DNA of 30,484 nt from an uncultured Actinomycetota bacterium (GTDB lineage: Bacteria; Actinomycetota; Humimicrobiia; Humimicrobiales; Humimicrobiaceae): positions 1 through 30,484 of the forward strand of contig CAZDXU010000137.1 of NCBI GenBank assembly GCA_964509585.1, given 5' to 3'. Each line of letters begins with the position of its first letter. Within the stretch, counting starts at the first letter, position 1. A program made the translations under genes and the position numbers. Of this stretch, positions 2,844 to 17,545 are shown piece by piece. Below the pieces are notes generated by a model, which made no database searches, had not been told where the DNA came from, and saw nothing but the letters and a program-made list of their open reading frames with translations.

Positions 2844-3896
2844 ATGAAGAAAATACCATTGACAAAAAGGATTATCAAAAGGTCTGCCAGGGACCTGAAA
2901 AAGCTCTTTTACGGGTCTTTGCCGCCTGAGACTGCCTATTACCTGAGAAAGAAGATATACGGCGCCATATTGAGAAGATACTCATGCCAGGAGGACCTTC
3001 CCATAGAAGAATTAAAAAATATCCATATCATCATGGGCCTAGCCTGCAATTATAGATGCAGGATGTGCTACCAGACAGACTTCAGCAAGAAGCTGGATCC
3101 GGATATTTATCTTAACAGCTTAAAGGGCATATATCAAAATATAGAAGAGATAATAATCCAGGGAGGCGAACCGACCATTATGGCTGGCGCCAGGGAGCTT
3201 ATCGGATTCCTTACTTCAAGATACGAAAATATGAAGATCAGCACTTTCACCAACGGGTATCTTTTTGACGGATGGTGGAGAGAGACGTTTGCAAAAAATG
3301 GAGGCTTTGTAAATTTTTCCATAAATGCAGCCGGAAGGGAAAAATATTCAGAGATCAACGGAAAGGACAACTGGGACCAGGCAGTTTATAACCTGCAGCG
3401 GCTGATAAACATAAGGAACAGTTCCGGGAGCGGGCTGGAGATAAGGTCAAGTTTTGTGATCCTGGAAGAAAACCTGGGGGAGCTGTATGATTTTGTCTGT
3501 TTCTTTCATAAACTGGGAGTAGACAGGATAAGCTTTTTTTATGATATGAACCTTTTTCCTTCAAATACCGGGGAAGCCCGCTGCCAGATCGACAGCATAA
3601 ACAGGTACAGAAAGGAAAATACAGGATTAGCCATCGAAGGCCTGGATAGTTTTGGGAACTGGATCTTCAATAGAAGGCAGGGACCGCCGCTGCAATGCAA
3701 GTATCCATTCAACAGTATATTCATAGATGAATCAGGAAATGTCTATTTCTGCTGTCTCATCAGCAAATCCATAGGCAATCTTAATTATGAACGCATAGAG
3801 GCATTATGGAATAATATACTGGCAAAAAATATCAGGGCCCGTTTTAAAAATGGAGATTACAGGTACTGCGGGCATTACTGCATACCGCATGACTAA
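2844..3896 (+). CDS. Radical SAM protein with C-terminal SPASM/twitch domain
   Basis: CxxxCxxC in ACNYRCRMCY, QGGEP, FTNG. C-terminal CKYPFNSIFIDESGNVYFCC...IGNL...CGHYC. Confidence 0.9.
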   Translation: MKKIPLTKRIIKRSARDLKKLFYGSLPPETAYYLRKKIYGAILRRYSCQEDLPIEELKNIHIIMGLACNYRCRMCYQTDFSKKLDPDIYLNSLKGIYQNIEEIIIQGGEPTIMAGARELIGFLTSRYENMKISTFTNGYLFDGWWRETFAKNGGFVNFSINAAGREKYSEINGKDNWDQAVYNLQRLINIRNSSGSGLEIRSSFVILEENLGELYDFVCFFHKLGVDRISFFYDMNLFPSNTGEARCQIDSINRYRKENTGLAIEGLDSFGNWIFNRRQGPPLQCKYPFNSIFIDESGNVYFCCLISKSIGNLNYERIEALWNNILAKNIRARFKNGDYRYCGHYCIPHD

Positions 3897-3897
3897 A

Positions 3898-5076
3898 ATG
3901 AAAATACTTTGGTTTCCCAGATTAATATCAGGGATCGACGACCTGCACATGACTACATGGAAAGAGATGAGCGCAGAGCTCATCAAGAAAGGCCATAAGG
4001 TAAAAATAGCCCTGGCCGGGTATGATGATGCCTGCAATATTGAGAACCGGGTCCACATAAGGATAATCAACAGGAAGATACTCAGGATGATAAGCTTCTG
4101 GATATCAGGCTATCTGAGATTTATGATAGATATCTTCAGGTTCAGGCCGGATGCAGTGATCCTTGATATATATACGGTATGGTTTGCTGGGGCATTACCG
4201 GTGTTTTTGAGAAATACTATCTTCATACTCGATAACCGGACGCCCATAGTCCACAATTCAGAGAAGCTTTCTTATGCAGGATATTATATATTCAGGGATC
4301 ATGTGCTTGAGAAATACAGCATCCTTGCGCACCGCTATTCAGGTCTTATGATGGACGGTATAACTGCTATTACCGGCTACTACAGGGATTATCTTATAAA
4401 AAGGTTCAGGTATGACCGGGACAGGGTCTCTGTGTTCAGTTCCGGAGTCAACCAGGATAAGTTCAGGGCCATGGATGGAGATAGGGCAAGACCCGCATAT
4501 CTTAAGGGAAGATTTGTCTTTATCCATCATGGGGAGATATCATTCAACCGGGGTATTATTGAGACGGCCGCTGCGCTGGAAAGTATAGATAATGAAGAGA
4601 TAACGCTGCTCCTTCTGGGGAAGGGGCCGGCTGATAGCCATATAAAAGATATGATAAGGGATAAGAAGCTTGAAAACAGGGTGTTACTGCTGCCGCCGGT
4701 CCCATATGAAGATGTCCCCGGGATAATCAGCTATTGTGACTGTGCAGTTATGGCATACCCGCCTACAGATTACTGGAATAAGAACAATCCCATAAAACTG
4801 CTGGAATACCTGGCATCGGGCAAGCCGGTCATATGCACTGATTTCCGGACTTTCAGGGATGTTGCCGGGGATAAAAAATGTATAAAATATATAAAGGATA
4901 ATAGCCCCTTAAGCATAAGGGATGCCATGATCTATCTTTATAAAAACAGGAAGCTGCTGGGTGAATGGGGCAAAGAAGGGATAAAAGTGGTTTCAAAAAA
5001 TTTTACCTGGGAAAGGCAAGCCGGGGATCTTGTTGGTTTTATATTGAAACTTAAGCAGGGAAAGAAGAAGAGATGA
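3898..5076 (+). CDS. GT4 family glycosyltransferase
   Basis: Start revised to ATG 3898 (MKILWFP), 1 nt after the upstream stop; 3889 is an alternative. HHGEISFNRG and PIKLLEYLASGKPVICTD are GT4 C-terminal motifs. Confidence 0.88.
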   Translation: MKILWFPRLISGIDDLHMTTWKEMSAELIKKGHKVKIALAGYDDACNIENRVHIRIINRKILRMISFWISGYLRFMIDIFRFRPDAVILDIYTVWFAGALPVFLRNTIFILDNRTPIVHNSEKLSYAGYYIFRDHVLEKYSILAHRYSGLMMDGITAITGYYRDYLIKRFRYDRDRVSVFSSGVNQDKFRAMDGDRARPAYLKGRFVFIHHGEISFNRGIIETAAALESIDNEEITLLLLGKGPADSHIKDMIRDKKLENRVLLLPPVPYEDVPGIISYCDCAVMAYPPTDYWNKNNPIKLLEYLASGKPVICTDFRTFRDVAGDKKCIKYIKDNSPLSIRDAMIYLYKNRKLLGEWGKEGIKVVSKNFTWERQAGDLVGFILKLKQGKKKR

Positions 5077-5530
5077 GAACCATAAAGATAGTAGTAATAC
5101 ATCCATTCGATCCCTGGGGCATAAAAATCGGAGGAGCTGAAGTATTTATAAAAGAATTTGTAAAAAATTCCCCTGATAATTTTGAGATAGAATTCATAGG
5201 CGTTTCTTCAGATCCCGCCGAAAGGCCGGTTGGAAGACGGAAAGCCGGATATCTGGGAGGGAGAAAAATATCCTTCTACCCGGTTTTATATGTCCGTGAC
5301 GAGAATATAAAGACAAGGATACCCCTGTCGCTAATATTTACCATCGTTCTGTTTTTCTCAAGGGTCGACTATGGAAATAAGGTGATTTTCTTTAACAGGA
5401 TAGAACCGGCAATATTATTTAAAAGACACAGGGGATTAAAGATCCTGATGGTGCACAATGATGTCCAGGAACAGATATACAAGAAAAAAGGGGAAGTCAT
5501 CTGGAACAGGATACCATGGTTATACAGAAT
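5073..5530 (+). pseudogene. 5' fragment of a GT4 glycosyltransferase interrupted by the mobile element
   Basis: GT4-type N-terminus MRTIKIVVIHPFDPWGIKIGGAE. ATGA overlap with the upstream stop. The frame runs into element DNA and stops at 5544-5546. Confidence 0.85.
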
Positions 5531-5543
5531 TGAACTAAACCGC
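5529..5543. repeat. Left terminal arm ATTGAACTAAACCGC
   Basis: Its reverse complement GCGGTTTAGTTCAAT matches 8078-8092 at 12/15. 5528-5538 is the exact reverse complement of 7791-7801. Confidence 0.8.
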
Positions 5544-5644
5544 TAACGCGGTAGTTTTATCTTTCCTAAATCTTAAACCAAATGAATTTTTCAACTCCCC
5601 AGGCAATCCACATATTACTCTCATAAGAATATCTAAGATACTTT

Positions 5645-5672
5645 TTAACTAAAACTTAAAAGACATTACAAT
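5645..5672 (+). promoter_or_regulatory. Possible sigma70-type promoter of the recombinase-transposase pair
   Basis: TTAACT-N16-TACAAT upstream of the AGGA RBS and ATG 5726. The region is AT-rich, so a chance match is possible. Confidence 0.3.
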
Positions 5673-5725
5673 AATAGCCCACGGATACATTCAAATTGAT
5701 AAACGATTTAAAGAAAGGAAACACC

Positions 5726-6571
5726 ATGACCACTCTTCGTACAAAAATGATTGAAGACATGCAGCTTCGCAGGTTTTCTGTAAATACCCAGAGGTCCTAC
5801 CTGCAGGCAGTAACAGGACTGGCCAGACACTTCAGAAGATCTCCGGATAAGATAAGCAGGGATGAGTATAGAGACTATATACTTTTTCTAACAAACGAGC
5901 GTAAATTAAGCTATAGCACGATAAGGACGGCAACTGCCGGCATAAGCTTTTTCTACAAAGAGATACTGCATAGAAAAGATATGGCTCTTGCGATACCTAA
6001 ACGTAAGAAATCAAGACGTCTGCCGGAGGTCTTTAGCAGAAGTGAACTTGTAAGACTGTTCGGAAGCGTTAAAAATGAAAAACACAGGGCAATGCTCATG
6101 ACAGCTTACGGCTGCGGGCTGCGTGTAAGCGAGGTCATAGCTCTTAAAGTAGCTGACATCGACAGTAAAAGGATGATGGTCAAGATCTACCAGTCAAAAG
6201 GAGCAAAAGACCGTTATACTATCCTTCCCCCAATCCTACTTGCAGAGCTCCGCTCGTACTGGCTTAAATACCGGCCCCCATACTGGCTTTTTACCAGCAA
6301 TCAGACCAGGGGAAAGCTTTCCAGAAAAACTGCCCATAAGATATTTATAGAGGCCAAAGATAGGGCCGGTATTAAAAAAAATGTCACTTTCCATGGATTT
6401 CGCCATAGTTTTGCAACCCATATGCTTGAAGAGGGAGTGGATATAAGGACTATACAGATCCTTATGGGACACGCGTCAATTTCCTCCACTATGACTTACC
6501 TTCATATTGCCAGAAAAGACATAGGTCCCGCCAAAAGCCCGCTGGACCTATTGTATGCCGGGGTCCGGTAA
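5726..6571 (+). CDS. Tyrosine recombinase (phage integrase/XerD-like) with N-terminal SAM-like domain
   Basis: Catalytic residues in YGCGLRVSE (R), KGAK (K), FHGFRHSFATH (HxxR), MGH and TMTYLH (Y). Start revised to ATG 5726, which follows an AAAGGA RBS (281 aa). Confidence 0.95.
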   Translation: MTTLRTKMIEDMQLRRFSVNTQRSYLQAVTGLARHFRRSPDKISRDEYRDYILFLTNERKLSYSTIRTATAGISFFYKEILHRKDMALAIPKRKKSRRLPEVFSRSELVRLFGSVKNEKHRAMLMTAYGCGLRVSEVIALKVADIDSKRMMVKIYQSKGAKDRYTILPPILLAELRSYWLKYRPPYWLFTSNQTRGKLSRKTAHKIFIEAKDRAGIKKNVTFHGFRHSFATHMLEEGVDIRTIQILMGHASISSTMTYLHIARKDIGPAKSPLDLLYAGVR

Positions 6572-6576
6572 GCGCT

Positions 6577-7794
6577 ATGCCGGCAGCACAGGCAACCAAA
6601 GAGAAGAAAAAAGCACCCGGCCGGGATCTTTCCGATATATTTATAGAGTATGGCGGTGCCTATCACAAGACCCACCCTATGTCGTTTTGCCAGAAAAAAG
6701 TCATGCATGATGTCAAGGTGTGCAGGACATCCTACCTGGGAGGACATGTAAAGACATGCGACTTCTGCGGATATGAGCATCCGGCATATAACTCCTGCGG
6801 CAACCGCCACTGTCCCAAGTGCCAGAACATTGCCAAGTTTCGCTGGATAAAAAAACGGGAGGAAGAACTTCTGCCGGTTGATTATTTTCATAATGTGTTT
6901 ACCCTTCCTCACGGACTTAACCCACTTTCCCGGGCCAATAAAAAAGTGATATACGATATCCTTTTTAAGAGTGTATCTGAGACCCTTATACAGTTTGGCC
7001 AAAATGAACTTGGCGGCAGGCTGGGATTTCTTGCCATACTGCATACCTGGGACCAAAAACTTTGCCAGCATATACATCTTCACTGTATCATCCCGGCAGG
7101 AGCACTATCAGCTGGAAAGATAAGATGGATAAGATCTCTAGATGATAGTTTCCTCTTTTCTGTAAAAGCACTATCAAAAGTATTTAGGGGTAAGTTTCTA
7201 TGCTATCTTAAAAAAGCATATACCGGGGGCCGGCTTGTCTTTGCTGGAAAGTCTTCCGAATACGAGAGCAAAGAGGGATTTAAGACCCTAATAGACAGGC
7301 TATACAAAAAAGACTGGGTAGTATATTCGGCCAGACCTTTTGCCGGACCAGGTAAAGTCTTGGATTATCTTGGCCGCTATACACATAGGATCGCCATATC
7401 CAATGACCGCATAAAGAGTGTTACCGGCGGCATGGTCACTTTTTCCTACCGTGACCGAAAGAATGGCAACCAGAAAAAAGAGATGACTCTTTCTGCGAGT
7501 GAATTTATCAGGCGGTTTCTAACACATGTCCTTCCAGATTCCTATACCCGCATAAGGCACTATGGATTTCTTAGTAACCGCAACCGTAAAGAAAATGTAG
7601 CACGGGTAAAGGATCTTCTGGGAGTCTCTTCGGAAAATGGCACTAAAAAGAAGCAAGATGCTCGGGAGATCATGCTTGAACTCACCGGAAAGGATATATT
7701 AAGATGCCCGCAATGTAAGACTGGTACCATGGCAACCTGCCGTTTGATTACCAGGTTTTCTGTGTGGATCGACAGTCAGTTCAGCGAGCCTTAG
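6577..7794 (+). CDS. IS91-family rolling-circle (Y2 HUH) transposase
   Basis: N-terminal Cys-rich zinc domain CRTSYLGGH..CDFCG..NSCGNRHCPKCQ, HUH region HTWDQKLCQHIHLHC, YLGRY (YxxxY), IRHYGFLSN and C-terminal CPQC. Confidence 0.95.
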   Translation: MPAAQATKEKKKAPGRDLSDIFIEYGGAYHKTHPMSFCQKKVMHDVKVCRTSYLGGHVKTCDFCGYEHPAYNSCGNRHCPKCQNIAKFRWIKKREEELLPVDYFHNVFTLPHGLNPLSRANKKVIYDILFKSVSETLIQFGQNELGGRLGFLAILHTWDQKLCQHIHLHCIIPAGALSAGKIRWIRSLDDSFLFSVKALSKVFRGKFLCYLKKAYTGGRLVFAGKSSEYESKEGFKTLIDRLYKKDWVVYSARPFAGPGKVLDYLGRYTHRIAISNDRIKSVTGGMVTFSYRDRKNGNQKKEMTLSASEFIRRFLTHVLPDSYTRIRHYGFLSNRNRKENVARVKDLLGVSSENGTKKKQDAREIMLELTGKDILRCPQCKTGTMATCRLITRFSVWIDSQFSEP

Positions 7795-7801
7795 TTCAAT
7801 T
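7791..7801. repeat. Internal copy of the terminal arm (TTAGTTCAATT) overlapping the transposase stop codon
   Basis: Perfect 11-bp inverted repeat of AATTGAACTAA at 5528-5538. TAG 7792-7794 is the transposase stop. Confidence 0.7.
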
Positions 7802-8077
7802 GATACATCATGTACTATTATTTAGACAATATTAAATATTATCCTTTTACCTCTCTTTTAAAGAGCAGTGGTAGGGCTATGGCTTTTTATCCTGTTACTT
7901 CTTTTTATCTATATCATTTTTATATCAAAAAGAGATCTTTTATATGGCTTTACCGGTTTATTGATATAATCTTATGGTTTTTGTGTGCTCTGAGTCTTCT
8001 TTTTGGCGGTTCTCCTATTTTAATGATTCCAATACTTTCTACATAGAAAAAGTTCTTACTTCTTTGACTAAATATAC

Positions 8078-8137
8078 GCGGCTCAGCTCAATAATGTTTT
8101 ATCTCCAATGCTTGTGCACAAGAGATAAAACGCTAAT
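8078..8137. repeat. Right-end structure: arm + perfect 10-bp stem-loop (attC-like half site)
   Basis: GCGGCTCAGCTCAAT (8078-8092), AAT, GTTTTATCTC (8096-8105), a 16-nt loop, GAGATAAAAC (8122-8131), GCTAAT. A 12-bp palindrome CTTGTGCACAAG lies at 8111-8122. Confidence 0.8.
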
Positions 8138-8894
8138 CCTAATGGAAAGAAGCATAATGCCGGTACTTGATATTGTCTATTCATCTAATAACAGACAGGT
8201 TCATTACTACCGGGAGACCCATAAAGGAAAAAAGTTTCTTTTCATACCTTCAATGGTAGATGTGTCTATATTCTATGAAACTACTGTAAGAAAAGAATAT
8301 TTGAAGGAAGCCATATCATGCAGATATCCAGTTATACCTGGAAGATGTGTATGGTTATTATTTACCGGGAGACTGCAAAAACAGAAAGCTCCTCTTCGGC
8401 TGGTGCAAGTATTCTACCAGTATCTGAAAGAATACAATTATGACGCGGCGCTTATCATAATCGGAGATGGTGACTTGAAGAATAGGCTGAATACCATGAT
8501 AAATGAGCTTGGACTGGCCGGCAGGGTATTTATCCTCCCACCAATTAGTCAAACTGAGCTTGCCGAATTCTACAGAGCCAGTGATGTCTTTTTACTGACC
8601 AGCAATTATGAAAATATGCCCTTCAGCGTTTTGGAAGCCCAGAGCTGCGGACTTCCTGTAGTATCTACCGATGCAGGCGAAGTGCGCAATGTGGTAAGGG
8701 GAGGCCTTTCAGGTATAGTGCTCAGAGATGCAGACGACAGGCAGCTGGCTGAAGCCGTCAATAAAATCCTGGTCGATAGAGAAATTTTCAGCTCCCTGAA
8801 CTGTGTAGAGTCTGTAAGCGGATACAGGCCCGGGAATGTCTTTAAGCCAGTGTATAAGCTGATAGAAAAGCATTGCAAAAAAGATTATTCATGA
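8138..8894 (+). pseudogene. 3' fragment of the interrupted GT4 glycosyltransferase
   Basis: Contains LFTGRLQKQK and the Ex7E motif YENMPFSVLEAQSCGLPVVST. In frame with the 5073 fragment when joined at AAT. The ORF-track start at 7974 lies in element DNA. Confidence 0.85.
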
Positions 8895-8902
8895 ATGATT
8901 TT

Positions 8903-10468
8903 TCAAGAAAATATCTTTGGAGAGATCTCTTTACAGTCAATGCCGGGAAAATTCTTTCTTATCACCCCGCACCTGTGATCCCTGGTCCAATTGATAAGCT
9001 GTTTTCTTTCCCTTCTATCAAGCCAGGCAGAGACTGTCCACCACAGCCAATTCAGCCATCTGCTGTCTAAGCATCTGAAGATAAAAGGCCTGGTGCACAT
9101 TTTTAGAAGGCACCTGTTCAGGTTATGGCTGTAAGCCCACAGGCAGACCCGGAAAAAACACCTGTCCAGGGCTACCATATTACTTCTATATGGAGACCTG
9201 AAAGCCGATCCCGCTTCTTCTGCCATTTTTGCTATCTCTGTGCCGGGAAAGAAGGTCATCGAATATAATGACAGCTGGAATGGATATCCGATCCTTTCCA
9301 GAAGTTTCAGAGTATCAAGCCTGTCCTCTGCCTTCTGGAATAATGGGTCTATGATGAAGTCGAATACTGGCGCCCTTATAGCCCCCCTGTACCCTGCCAG
9401 AAGGTTACCTGCCCTTACCAGCACTTCCGGATCATTATTCCTGTGGTAGATCTTCTGTATCCTCCTGCTGCCCGTCTGCATGCCTATCCATATATAGCGC
9501 AGTCCTGCCGGGACCAGCGCATCCATGCGCCTTTTATCCAGGGTAGACGGGCTTGAGCATGCAAAGAAGGGCAGGGAGACCTTATCCTTATACAGCATAG
9601 AGAATTCTTCAATACTTTCATGGGAGGCAGCAAAAAACGTATCATCCATGAATGCGACTTTGTCGATAAAAGGCATCTTTTCCCGCATATAGCATATCTC
9701 TTCGACAATCCGCCGGTTACTGTATCTGCGCACCCTGTTCCATCCATCATATATGCCGGAATAAAATGAATTGCAGCAGTATGCGCAGCTATGGGGGCAG
9801 CCGCGGGTAGCCAGGATATGATAGGCTGAGCCCTGTCCAAAACTGTATCCATCGCTCAGATGCCAGCAGGCCAGTGACGGTGTCAGCGATATGAGCTCTC
9901 CCTTATGCATTATAAAGCTGGTGCCGGTTTCATATAGGGGATACGGCAGACTGTCAAGGTCGCTTATGAATGGCCTTAAGGGGTTGATAACCGGCCTGCC
10001 CGAATCTTTGTCCATCCAGCAGAGATTGCGGACTTCCCGGCCGCTGCCTCCCCTCTCCAGCTTTTCTGCCAGCTCCAGCATGGCCAGCTCGCCTTCGCCG
10101 CGGCATACATAGTCTGCATGTCCGAGGCATTCTTCAGGAGAGACACTGGGATGGATACCCCCCCAGATGACAGGTACGTCTGAATTATTAGAGCGAAGAT
10201 GATCGGAAAGGACGGCAAGACGTTCAAAATGATTCGTGGCGCAGCTTATCCCTACAAGTCCTGCATCCCCGCATATCCCGCATAAGCTTCTAAGTATGTT
10301 TTCCGGATAGCTGCAGGCCTTTTCCAGTCCCGGCAAAGGTTCTATCTCTTCGGGAAAGGGCAAAAAGACCATGCATATCTCATGGCCGGCTTCCTTAAGG
10401 CAGGCGGCTATCTGGCGGAGACCGTAGGCTATCAGGCTCCCGTGAGGCGATATAAGGACGATCTTCAT
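8903..10468 (-). CDS. Cobalamin (B12)-binding radical SAM protein (class B methyltransferase-like)
   Basis: B12-domain motifs GLVGISCATNH, VIWGGIHPS and DYVCRGEGE. CxxxCxxC in TRGCPHSCAYCCN. FMDDTF, IGMQTGS, FFPGT. Likely start ATG 10468 (MKIVLISP); the ORF track extends it to 10537. Confidence 0.9.
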   Translation of the reverse strand: MKIVLISPHGSLIAYGLRQIAACLKEAGHEICMVFLPFPEEIEPLPGLEKACSYPENILRSLCGICGDAGLVGISCATNHFERLAVLSDHLRSNNSDVPVIWGGIHPSVSPEECLGHADYVCRGEGELAMLELAEKLERGGSGREVRNLCWMDKDSGRPVINPLRPFISDLDSLPYPLYETGTSFIMHKGELISLTPSLACWHLSDGYSFGQGSAYHILATRGCPHSCAYCCNSFYSGIYDGWNRVRRYSNRRIVEEICYMREKMPFIDKVAFMDDTFFAASHESIEEFSMLYKDKVSLPFFACSSPSTLDKRRMDALVPAGLRYIWIGMQTGSRRIQKIYHRNNDPEVLVRAGNLLAGYRGAIRAPVFDFIIDPLFQKAEDRLDTLKLLERIGYPFQLSLYSMTFFPGTEIAKMAEEAGSAFRSPYRSNMVALDRCFFRVCLWAYSHNLNRCLLKMCTRPFIFRCLDSRWLNWLWWTVSAWLDRRERKQLINWTRDHRCGVIRKNFPGIDCKEISPKIFS

Positions 10469-10694
10469 ATGGACCCAAACTATTGTTTTTCCGGCAATGA
10501 GCATAGGATAAAAGATTTTCCTGAAAATGTTAATCACTGATTATTGAATAAAAGGCTTTATTTTTATATTTCTTTATTTAAAATATAATCTGATCATAAA
10601 AAGGATAACAGGAGCCTATATCAGTATAACCGGGCAGATCGCAAAGAAATTTTCTTTAAAACCGCATAGTAGCAGCAAAACAGCATCGTCCTTT

Positions 10695-16557: not shown

Positions 16558-17545
16558 TTAGCGGACAGGTCTTAACATTTCCATAAGGCCGGCCCTGAAT
16601 CCGGCAACCGGCTTATAGCCGAGGTCCCGGGTGATCTTTTCTATGGAGGCAAGGCTATGCCTGACATCGCCTATTCTTTCATCTTTATAGTCTACGGGTA
16701 TCTCTTTCCCGAAATGTCCTGAAAGTATGCGGATAATCTCATTGAGACTGATATTGCTTCCGCAGGCTACATTATAGAAATTGCCGAAGATCTTTTTATT
16801 ATCCGAGAATGCGGCCAGGTAATTTGCATAGACAACATTATCGATATAGGTAAAATCACGGCTCTGCTCTCCGCCCCCATATATTACCGGCGGGATCCCC
16901 CCGGATATATTTTTTAAGAATCTTGGTATTACGGCAGAATATATGGAGTCCGGATCCTGCCGTTTGCCAAATACATTGAAGTAGCGCAGGGAAACAGTCT
17001 GCAGCCCATACAGGCCATAATACAGCCTGCAGTAATACTCTGCAGCCAGTTTTGTCACCGCATAGATAGATTTTGGGTTTGGAGGCATCAACTCTTCCTT
17101 GGGCAGCTTTTCGGAATCACCATATATGGAAGAGGATGAAGCATAAATAAACCTTTTTACGCCATTTTCGGCAGAAGCTTTCAGCATATTCAGGGTCCCG
17201 TCGGTATTGGCTGAATTAGAGTCGATCGGTTTTTCGATAGATCTTTGTACGGATCCTAAAGCAGCCTGGTGCAGTACAATATCTATATCCCTGGTACAGG
17301 CAAGACAGTCATCAAGATACCGTATGTCCTTATCCATGAAAACAAAGTCAATATTGCTGTTTTGAATGCGGGCATCTGATAATGCCTCATCTATATTTTT
17401 CATGGAACCTGTTGAAAGATTGTCCATTCCCCTGACCGCCAGGCCTTTTTTCAAAAAACTCAACCAGGTTAGATCCAATAAAACCGGCACATCCGGTTAT
17501 AAGAATTCCGGGTTTTCCATCGGCTTTTAGTTTTGCGGGGTCCAA
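16558..17545 (-). pseudogene. Frameshifted UDP-GlcNAc 4-epimerase-like SDR (WbpP/TviC-like)
   Basis: TTG 17545, 8 nt after a GGAGG RBS, encodes ILITGCAGFIGSNLVEFF. The catalytic part (HQAALGSV, ASSSSIYG, YAVTK, LRYFNVFG) is in the +1 frame. The shift falls in G-T6-G-A6 at 17446-17458. The first frame stops at 17387-17389. Confidence 0.85.

What the first reader, a model, noticed from the sequence alone, without database searches (positions are those of the whole stretch)
5073..8894. GT4 gene cleanly interrupted; exact excision would restore a 404-aa enzyme (possible glycan on/off switch)
Seen: joining 5073-5530 to 8138-8894 gives 1,215 nt in one frame reading ...TTA TAC AGA ATC CTA ATG GAA... 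(PWLYRILMERS). Both halves keep intact motifs and have no other stops. Established: reversible IS insertions switch surface polysaccharides (IS492 in eps, IS256 in ica, IS1301 in siaA). Inference: the element's own tyrosine recombinase could excise it precisely and turn the GT back on. A recent one-way knockout is equally possible.
Basis: partly seen in the sequence, partly recalled or inferred. Interest (0 to 1): 0.7.

Follow-up and report, generated by a model that had tools for sequence, protein, structure and literature searches.

The report
IS91-type element splits a glycosyltransferase gene
A 2.6-kb mobile element of the IS91 family, carrying a rolling-circle transposase and a tyrosine recombinase, has recently landed inside a sugar-transferase gene of a surface-polysaccharide cluster in an uncultured sediment bacterium; this is an ordinary gene knockout, and nothing yet shows that it switches back.

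Summary
Identical copies of the insert in six other metagenome contigs share window 5530-8140. A circular-type contig gives a unit of 2610 nt, with one T ambiguous between the ends.

Removing that unit leaves ...ACAGAA-T-AATGG..., a 1212-nt frame of 403 aa. It aligns to 52 intact GT4-like homologs with no gap at the junction.

The insert is an IS91-family element:
- It carries a Y2 HUH transposase (NF033538, 430 bits) and an upstream Xer/IntI-like tyrosine recombinase.
- It has no terminal inverted repeats and no target duplication, and each end has a subterminal hairpin.
- The same two-gene module occurs across phyla and is already annotated in RefSeq plasmids.

Identical copies in several contexts and an end-to-end junction show the element is active and the insertion recent. 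No empty-site allele was found in any assembly, protein database or contig laid. The locus is known from one sample at about 5-8x, so the test has little power.

IS91-type circles are copy-out intermediates and do not imply that the donor site is emptied. Best reading: a recent, effectively one-way knockout. A reversible switch is compatible with the sequence but unsupported. Other first-reader notes cover this same element in this window.

The parts
5073..5529 (+). N-terminal part of the interrupted GT4-like glycosyltransferase gene (152 codons + 1 nt). As annotated, the ORF runs on into the element to a stop at 5546.
   Evidence: ORF list. 39-41% identical to the N-terminal halves of intact homologs and of a paralog. 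Aligns over its whole length to 52 homologs.
5530..8139 (+). IS91-family insertion sequence, 2610 nt. The boundary is ambiguous by one T (could be 5531-8140). No terminal inverted repeats and no target-site duplication.
   Evidence: 100% identical block 5530-8140 in L028, L029, L031 and L032. 2610-nt circular-type contig L030. Logan unitig 5530-8140 at depth 31, against 5-8 for the flanks.
5530..5556 (+). Left (terIS-like) end: TTGAAC (GTTCAA on the bottom strand) followed by a small hairpin ACCGC-TAAC-GCGGT and then AGTTTT.
   Evidence: The terminus is conserved in five relatives at 65-73% identity and in Bacteroidota copies as TTGNACTAAACC...GGTAGTTTT. Fold. The hairpin loop varies and the stem is kept.
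5726..6571 (+). Tyrosine recombinase, 281 aa (alternative TTG start at 5696). Xer/integron-integrase-like, with HxxR and the C-terminal TYLH tyrosine present.
   Evidence: PF00589 1.4e-38 and PF13495 1.5e-17. NCBIfam XerA/IntI/XerD-like, all below the equivalog cut-offs. Motifs.
6577..7794 (+). IS91-family Y2 HUH transposase, 405 aa, with zinc-binding CxxC pairs, HIHLH at 165-169 and Y264-x3-Y268.
   Evidence: PF04986 3.6e-57 and PF14319 2.2e-28. NF033538 at 429.6 bits against a cut-off of 125. Motifs.
8078..8139 (+). Right (oriIS-like) end: an inverted, imperfect copy of the left terminus (8078-8091), a 10-bp-stem hairpin with a nested palindrome (8096-8131), and the tail CGCTAATCC.
   Evidence: Fold z = -2.2 to -3.7. 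The hairpin is conserved in seven relatives, with changes confined to the loop. Arm match.
8140..8894 (+). C-terminal part of the GT4-like gene (Glycos_transf_1 domain; E-x7-E motif ENMPFSVLE). It begins with TAATG, which may be the element's target motif.
   Evidence: PF00534 2.3e-33 and PF13692 6.3e-30. 37-44% identical to about 55 intact proteins of 391-421 aa.

Best explanation
A 2610-nt IS91-family insertion sequence (tyrosine recombinase gene followed by a Y2 HUH rolling-circle transposase gene) inserted recently into the last gene of a co-directional run in a Wzx/Wzy-type polysaccharide cluster.

Shown:
- The insertion split a 403-aa GT4-like glycosyltransferase into a 152-aa N-part and a 251-aa C-part, which should inactivate it.
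- The insertion is scarless, with no duplication and no deletion.

Inferred:
- It lies to the left of a T-W-A-T-S motif (TAATG here). That matches the IS91 habit of placing the oriIS end next to a short target word.
- The left end carries GTTC(AA) beside a hairpin, like terIS of IS801 and IS1294.
- The mechanism is as follows. The HUH transposase nicks at the right end, a single strand is displaced and circularised with its two ends abutted, and the circle is inserted at a new target. The donor copy is restored by replication.
- The state in this genome is therefore a loss-of-function allele that stays until it is lost by selection or by rare excision. It is not a programmed switch.
- The role of the tyrosine recombinase is unknown.
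For: - Domains and family scores; catalytic motifs intact.
- Exact boundaries from six identical copies in other samples, plus a 2610-nt circular-type contig and the Logan repeat unitig 5530-8140.
- The corrected join is 1212 nt and 403 aa, with no indel near the junction against 52 homologs. 71 of 85 columns that are at least 90% conserved are kept.
- No duplication at three different sites of the identical element or at four sites of a Bacteroidota relative.
- The flank right of the element starts TAATG or TTATC here, and TTATG, TTCTG or ATATG in relatives.
- Both ends have hairpins.
- IS91 family properties from the literature: no duplication, a target tetranucleotide next to oriIS, subterminal palindromes, GTTC at terIS, and ss and ds circles with oriIS and terIS abutted (PMC13181058); donor strand replaced by replication (PMC5714925).
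- The next gene downstream is convergent (8903-10537, minus strand), so there is no polar effect.
- No intact allele above 44% identity among 5.8 billion protein clusters.
Against: - Nothing directly shows that the glycosyltransferase was functional before the insertion or that its loss has a phenotype.
- The gene differs from its homologs at 14 of 85 highly conserved columns.
- A 41% identical paralog exists on contig C136.
- The left junction is supported by one assembly only. A collapsed tandem or composite of two copies inside the gene cannot be excluded with short reads.
- Which end is ori and which is ter, and the target motif, are inferred by analogy.
- The element has an extra recombinase whose activity could change the donor's fate.
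Confidence: 0.78

Rival explanations
1. Reversible glycan switch. The element excises exactly, through its tyrosine recombinase or by HUH single-strand 'peel' with resealing of the donor. This restores the 403-aa enzyme in part of the population, and re-insertion turns it off again.
For: - The insertion is scarless, so element-catalysed excision would restore the wild-type sequence.
- Both enzymes look intact.
- An end-to-end junction of the element exists in a metagenome.
- The copies are identical, so the element is active.
- There are precedents for IS-based polysaccharide phase variation: IS492 in epsG, IS256 in ica, and IS elements in the Xanthomonas O-antigen cluster (bioRxiv 10.1101/2023.04.27.538605).
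Against: - No empty-site sequence was found in the MAG, in the contigs of the two runs that hold the locus, in JGI contigs or in species-representative genomes. No intact close allele was found among the proteins. The power of these tests is low.
- In the Logan graphs the right flank continues without a branch from inside the element.
- The circle junction comes from another sample that lacks this locus, and circles are the normal copy-out intermediate of IS91.
- Other copies of the element lie in unrelated contexts, not in glycan genes.
Confidence: 0.12
2. Integration is done by the tyrosine recombinase, not the HUH transposase. A circle junction acts as an attP-like site that recombines with short target sites, so excision would be the simple reverse reaction.
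For: - The recombinase-transposase pair is strictly conserved in 30+ loci across phyla.
- Several copies sit at the same sequence, TTATCGGATG. In L029/L031 the element lies between inverted copies of that flank, at the edge of a 7-nt spacer (GCATCCGATAA-TATCTCC-TTATCGGATG). This looks like a recombinase core site.
Against: - At most one base (T) is shared between the ends and the target in this gene, so there is no common core between the circle junction and the GT site.
- The ends look like IS91 ter and ori ends.
- L029 may be a chimeric assembly across a 2.6-kb repeat.
- Canonical IS91 members transpose without any recombinase.
Confidence: 0.07
3. Assembly artefact. The element was threaded into the gene by mis-joining across a multi-copy repeat, or several tandem copies or a composite were collapsed into one.
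For: - The element is about 4x deeper than the flanks.
- The left junction occurs in one assembly only.
- The source scaffold contains a gap elsewhere.
- A tandem-type junction exists.
Against: - The two flanks are the exact complementary halves of one gene, in the right order, orientation and frame.
- The right junction is reproduced in independent Logan contigs.
- There are no Ns near the element in the JGI scaffold.
Confidence: 0.03

Closest known systems
IS91 / IS801 / IS1294 (IS91 family, HUH Y2 rolling-circle insertion sequences)
   Same: - Transposase family (NF033538 well above its cut-off), with the zinc-binding N-domain and the HUH and YxxxY motifs.
- No terminal inverted repeats and no target duplication.
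- Subterminal palindromes at both ends.
- GTTC beside the hairpin at the end upstream of the genes.
- A short conserved word in the flank next to the downstream end.
- A junction with the two ends abutted.
   Different: - It carries an additional tyrosine recombinase gene upstream of tnpA. IS91 instead has orf121, and the others have nothing.
- It is 2610 nt rather than about 1.5-1.8 kb.
- The flank word is T-W-A-T-S rather than CTTG/GTTC.
- About 345 nt of non-coding DNA follows tnpA.
- Only IS91, IS801, IS1294 and IS1294b have been shown experimentally to transpose.
IS91-family transposase + 'site-specific tyrosine recombinase/integron integrase (xerA)' pairs annotated in RefSeq, e.g. on Clostridium estertheticum and C. 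tagluense plasmids. ISfinder also lists two-ORF IS91 members such as ISWz1 (from my memory).
   Same: Same two-gene module in the same order. The transposase is 48-49% identical. The module is found in 30+ loci from Bacteroidota, Planctomycetota, Bacillota, Spirochaetota and others.
   Different: A different lineage, under 50% identical in protein to any named record seen here. That ISWz1 has an integrase ORF is recalled, not checked. The paper read says only that it is an IS91-family element that forms circles (PMC11322121).
IS492 in epsG of Pseudoalteromonas atlantica (and IS256 in ica; IS elements in the Xanthomonas oryzae O-antigen cluster): reversible IS insertion as polysaccharide phase variation
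   Same: An IS inside a polysaccharide biosynthesis gene, an element that forms circles, and excision that would restore the gene.
   Different: Those cases have demonstrated on and off populations and precise excision, and use different transposase families (IS110 and IS256 types, from my own knowledge). Here only the 'off' allele has ever been seen.
IS200/IS605 family (HUH Y1, 'peel and paste')
   Same: Single-strand HUH chemistry, subterminal hairpins, no duplication, and insertion next to a short target word. Precise strand excision with a resealed donor is part of that family's mechanism (from my own knowledge).
   Different: A different transposase fold and family (Y1, about 150 aa). There was no match here. 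It serves only as a model for how an HUH element could excise exactly.

Membership tests
IS91 family insertion sequence | HUH Y2 transposase of the IS91 type with an N-terminal zinc-binding domain | tested here: met
   NF033538 at 429.6 bits (cut-off 125); PF04986 and PF14319; HIHLH and Y264xxxY268.
IS91 family insertion sequence | No target-site duplication | tested here: met
   The three distinct sites of the identical element share at most one T between their flanks. Four sites of a Bacteroidota relative show none.
IS91 family insertion sequence | Two different ends (no terminal inverted repeats), each with subterminal palindromes | tested here: met
   The termini are TTGAACTAAACC... and ...CGCTAATCC. 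Hairpins lie at 5533-5556 and 8096-8131. An imperfect inverted copy of the left terminus lies about 50 nt inside the right end.
IS91 family insertion sequence | Insertion next to a specific tetranucleotide at the oriIS end (CTTG/GTTC in the studied members) | tested here: inconclusive
   The flank right of the element begins TAATG or TTATC for the identical copies, and TTATG (x4), TTCTG (x2) or ATATG (x1) in relatives. The word is conserved but is not CTTG/GTTC. In the relatives it could instead be part of the element.
IS91 family insertion sequence | Circular intermediate with oriIS and terIS abutted | tested here: met
   L030 is 2737 nt with a 127-nt terminal overlap, giving a 2610-nt circle or head-to-tail tandem. 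Strandedness, and circle versus tandem, cannot be told.
IS91 family insertion sequence | Transposase as the only enzyme | tested here: not met
   A tyrosine recombinase gene lies 5 nt upstream of tnpA and is conserved with it across phyla. This defines a subgroup; it does not exclude membership.
IS-mediated phase variation of a surface polysaccharide (IS492/epsG type) | Insertion in a polysaccharide biosynthesis gene | tested here: met
   The cluster has Bac_transf, a Polysacc_synt flippase, Wzy_C, GT2/GT4 genes, epimerases and UDP-glucose dehydrogenase.
IS-mediated phase variation of a surface polysaccharide (IS492/epsG type) | Filled and empty alleles coexist in one population | tested here: not met
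   There is no empty-site joint in the contigs of the two runs that hold the locus, no other contig with the left flank, no intact close allele, and neither junction in genomes. Power is low: contigs only, depth 5-8x, one sample.
IS-mediated phase variation of a surface polysaccharide (IS492/epsG type) | Demonstrated precise excision restoring function | not testable with these tools
   The sequence allows it (403-aa frame), but no data show it.
GT4-type (GT-B fold, retaining) glycosyltransferase | C-terminal Glycos_transf_1 domain with the E-x7-E motif | tested here: met
   PF00534 2.3e-33. ENMPFSVLE is read directly from the translation.
GT4-type (GT-B fold, retaining) glycosyltransferase | N-terminal GT4-type Rossmann domain | tested here: inconclusive
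   The 152-aa part has no Pfam or NCBIfam hit. It aligns end to end with homologs, some of which carry PF13439.

The most novel reading that the evidence does not exclude
The recombinase-bearing IS91 subgroup is a two-enzyme element. The HUH transposase makes a single-stranded circle, and the Xer/IntI-like tyrosine recombinase integrates and excises it exactly at short sites. Insertions such as this one would then be truly reversible and could act as an on/off switch for a surface glycan.
Probability: 0.1. Interest if true: 0.65.

Novelty: new member of a known kind. Interest (0 to 1): 0.25.

Why it matters
For the finding as posed, it matters little. An IS knocking out one glycosyltransferase in a variable polysaccharide cluster is common strain-level variation.

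Two things have some value:
- The exact ends, the lack of duplication, the conserved end motifs, the identical copies in several contexts and an end-to-end junction are natural evidence that a recombinase-bearing IS91 relative is active. Only four IS91-family members, none with a recombinase, have been shown to transpose.
- The corrected empty-site and circle-junction sequences make the switch hypothesis testable on raw reads or at the bench.

Tried and rejected
Rejected. It is in frame but needs a one-residue insertion against the homologs, and it disagrees with the 2610-nt unit.
- **Right end at 8144.** This was my first reading, because relatives share ...TTCATTATG up to that aligned position. 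It would make excision out of frame. I dropped it once the identical copies and the circle fixed the end at 8139/8140. The shared TTATG/TAATG is better read as a target word.
- **Alternative CTAA micro-repeat junction (5538|8143).** Rejected for the same reason.
- **Empty site.**
  - Read laying on four runs showed no 5529-to-8141 joint. These were contigs only, depth was 5-8x, and 5320-5483 was uncovered. Run X4 laid nothing.
  - The left-flank 24-mer had no other hit in JGI metagenome contigs.
- **Neighbouring genes.** The upstream GT4, the downstream B12/radical-SAM gene and the truncated N-part occur by exact protein in only the one JGI scaffold. No population comparison was possible.
- **Long-range pairing across the circle junction (attC-like fold).** The minimum-energy folds show only the two local hairpins. 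I did not pursue this.
- **Outward promoter at the right end.** Nothing exceeded the shuffles.
- **Mendiola 1994 (PMC43276).** The paper was not held.


Full report
**What is there**

Window 5073-8894 holds the two halves of one GT-B/GT4-like glycosyltransferase gene, separated by about 2.6 kb. The C-part (about 8140-8894) has a strong Glycos_transf_1 domain (PF00534, 2.3e-33). The N-part has no Pfam hit but aligns to the N-halves of intact homologs.

The intervening DNA encodes two proteins:
- a tyrosine recombinase at 5726-6571 (PF00589 and PF13495);
- five bases later, an IS91-family Y2 HUH transposase at 6577-7794 (PF04986 and PF14319; NF033538 at 430 bits against a cut-off of 125).

Both keep their catalytic motifs. 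The transposase has HIHLH and Y264xxxY268. The recombinase has HxxR and the terminal tyrosine. The finding mentions only the recombinase.

**Context**

The window is contig C137 of a 1.65-Mb, 88%-complete MAG. Genomes of the same family are deposited as 'Actinomycetota bacterium' MAGs.

The gene sits in a Wzx/Wzy-type polysaccharide cluster. The cluster has a priming transferase, a flippase, methyltransferases, radical-SAM enzymes, a second GT4, Wzy_C, epimerases, a GT2 and UDP-glucose dehydrogenase. The interrupted gene is the last of a co-directional run and the next gene is convergent, so no polar effect is expected.

**Exact boundaries**

Looking up the exact transposase protein found 100% identical copies of the element in contigs from six other JGI samples.
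- The block shared with the window is exactly 5530-8140, with unrelated flanks.
- Logan contigs of the runs that hold the locus give the same picture. The repeat unitig is 5530-8140 at depth 31, the flanks are at 5-8, and a second right flank branches off after 8140.
- One contig (L030, 2737 nt) repeats its first 127 nt at its end. It is therefore a 2610-nt circle or a head-to-tail tandem, with the junction ...CGCTAATCC-T-TGAACTAAACC....

The unit is therefore 2610 nt (870 x 3), with one T that can be assigned to either end. I place the element at 5530-8139, because all relatives begin TTGAAC.

**Consequence for the observation**

The empty site would read ...TTATACAGAA-T-AATGGAAAG..., giving 1212 nt and 403 aa. 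In an alignment with 52 intact homologs (391-421 aa, 37-44% identical), the junction WLY-RIM-ERS matches WLY-FMF-EK with no gap. 71 of 85 highly conserved columns are kept.

It is also in frame but inserts one residue.

**What kind of element**

The anatomy is that of the IS91 family:
- There are no terminal inverted repeats.
- There is no target duplication at three sites of the identical element or at four sites of a Bacteroidota relative.
- There is a small hairpin next to GTTC(AA) at the end upstream of the genes.
- There is a large hairpin with a nested palindrome near the downstream end.
- Both hairpins are conserved in relatives, with changes only in the loops.

According to PMC13181058, IS91-family members:
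- make no duplications;
- insert with oriIS next to a tetranucleotide;
- carry subterminal palindromes;
- use GTTC at terIS (IS801, IS1294);
- form ss and ds circles with the two ends abutted.

Only four members have been shown to transpose.

Here the flank right of the element starts TAATG (this gene) or TTATC (the other sites). In relatives it starts TTATG, TTCTG or ATATG. I read this as a target word that differs from CTTG/GTTC, but that is an inference.

The recombinase-transposase pair is conserved in more than 30 loci from many phyla, including Pseudobacteroides cellulosolvens. RefSeq already annotates it on Clostridium plasmids as 'IS91 family transposase' beside 'site-specific tyrosine recombinase/integron integrase'. 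The element is therefore a new member of a known, little-studied subgroup.

**Switch or knockout**

In favour of a switch:
- The insertion is scarless.
- The enzymes are intact.
- The element is active.
- An end-to-end junction exists.
- IS-based polysaccharide phase variation has precedents.

Against a switch:
- In the IS91 model one strand is displaced from the donor and the donor is restored by replication. Circles are therefore expected and do not imply an emptied site.
- The circle contig comes from a sample that does not hold this locus.
- No empty-site sequence or intact close allele was found anywhere I could look.
- In the Logan graphs the right flank continues unbranched from inside the element.
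- Other copies lie in unrelated contexts.

The negative evidence is weak. The locus is known from a single sample, only contigs could be laid, and depth is 5-8x.

I rate the readings as follows:
- recent, effectively one-way knockout: about 0.78;
- true reversible switch: about 0.12;
- recombinase-driven site-specific mechanism: about 0.07;
- assembly artefact or collapse: about 0.03.

**Caveats**

- The left junction is present in only one assembly, the JGI scaffold from which the MAG evidently derives. It is identical to the window over 18.9 kb except for a scaffold gap.
- The pairing of the flanks is nevertheless secured by the exact fit of the two gene halves.
- A collapsed tandem inside the gene cannot be excluded.
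- Whether the glycosyltransferase was active before the insertion is unknown. A 41%-identical paralog exists on C136.

**Earlier notes**

Other first-reader notes on this same element gave me two leads, both only partly checked:
- An attC-like rejoined hairpin. Folding showed two local hairpins.
- A third arm at 7783-7803. It is present with 3 mismatches, which is near chance within this window.

Noticed in passing
window ~17459 (within 17387-17545): The JGI scaffold of this locus (L005) is identical to the window except here. It carries 9 Ns plus AAAAAA, where the window has a closed-up T6-C-A6 stretch. A 'homopolymer frameshift' in the minus-strand epimerase at this place sits on a scaffolding gap and may be an assembly artefact.
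   Followed up: partly
G000 contig C232, last ~170 nt (3300-3471); L028:2644-2770; L032:2297-2387; L034, L035, L036: Most other copies of the element abut, on their right, a conserved 130-157-nt sequence starting TTATCGGATG. This sequence occurs in at least three different genomic contexts. The MAG's contig C232 ends exactly at ATCGGAT of such a sequence, which suggests a second, unassembled copy of the element in this genome.
   Followed up: partly
L029:1-88 and L031:1-62 (left flanks) versus L029:2699-2776: In these contigs the element lies between inverted, ~80-83% identical copies of that flank sequence. Without the element the site would read GCATCCGATAA-TATCTCC-TTATCGGATG, an 11-7-11 palindrome like a tyrosine-recombinase core site, with the element at the spacer/arm border. 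It could also be a chimeric assembly across the repeat.
   Followed up: partly
window 7776-8021: One contig of run X3 (depth 6.9) joins 7776 to 8021. This is a variant of the element lacking 244 nt of the non-coding region after the transposase stop. It starts beside the imperfect inverted copy of the left terminus at 7786-7799.
   Followed up: no
window 7974-8894: An open frame starts inside the element's right non-coding region and runs in frame into the C-terminal half of the glycosyltransferase (306 aa). No convincing outward promoter was found.
   Followed up: partly
G000:C136:8016-8462 (L004) and G009:C139:1305-1751 (L003): A 39-41% identical paralog or homolog of the interrupted glycosyltransferase is intact on another contig of the same MAG (open frame 427 aa) and in one genus relative. 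The other nine genus relatives searched (ten in all) had no match to the N-part.
   Followed up: no
L050, L057, L075, L077 (one Bacteroidota MAG); L056, L071 (Pseudobacteroides cellulosolvens ATCC 35603): Multi-copy relatives of the recombinase + IS91-transposase element. Their left end (TGTTGCACTAAACC..GGTAGTTTT) shares the motif of the window's left end, and they show no target duplication. L056 is a copy truncated at its 5' end. A cultured host makes the subgroup accessible at the bench.
   Followed up: partly
window 5539-5561: The left-end hairpin ACCGCTAACGCGGT is followed by AGTTTTATCT and scores as an intrinsic-terminator-like site on the + strand. It might shield the element from read-through from the host operon.
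   Followed up: no
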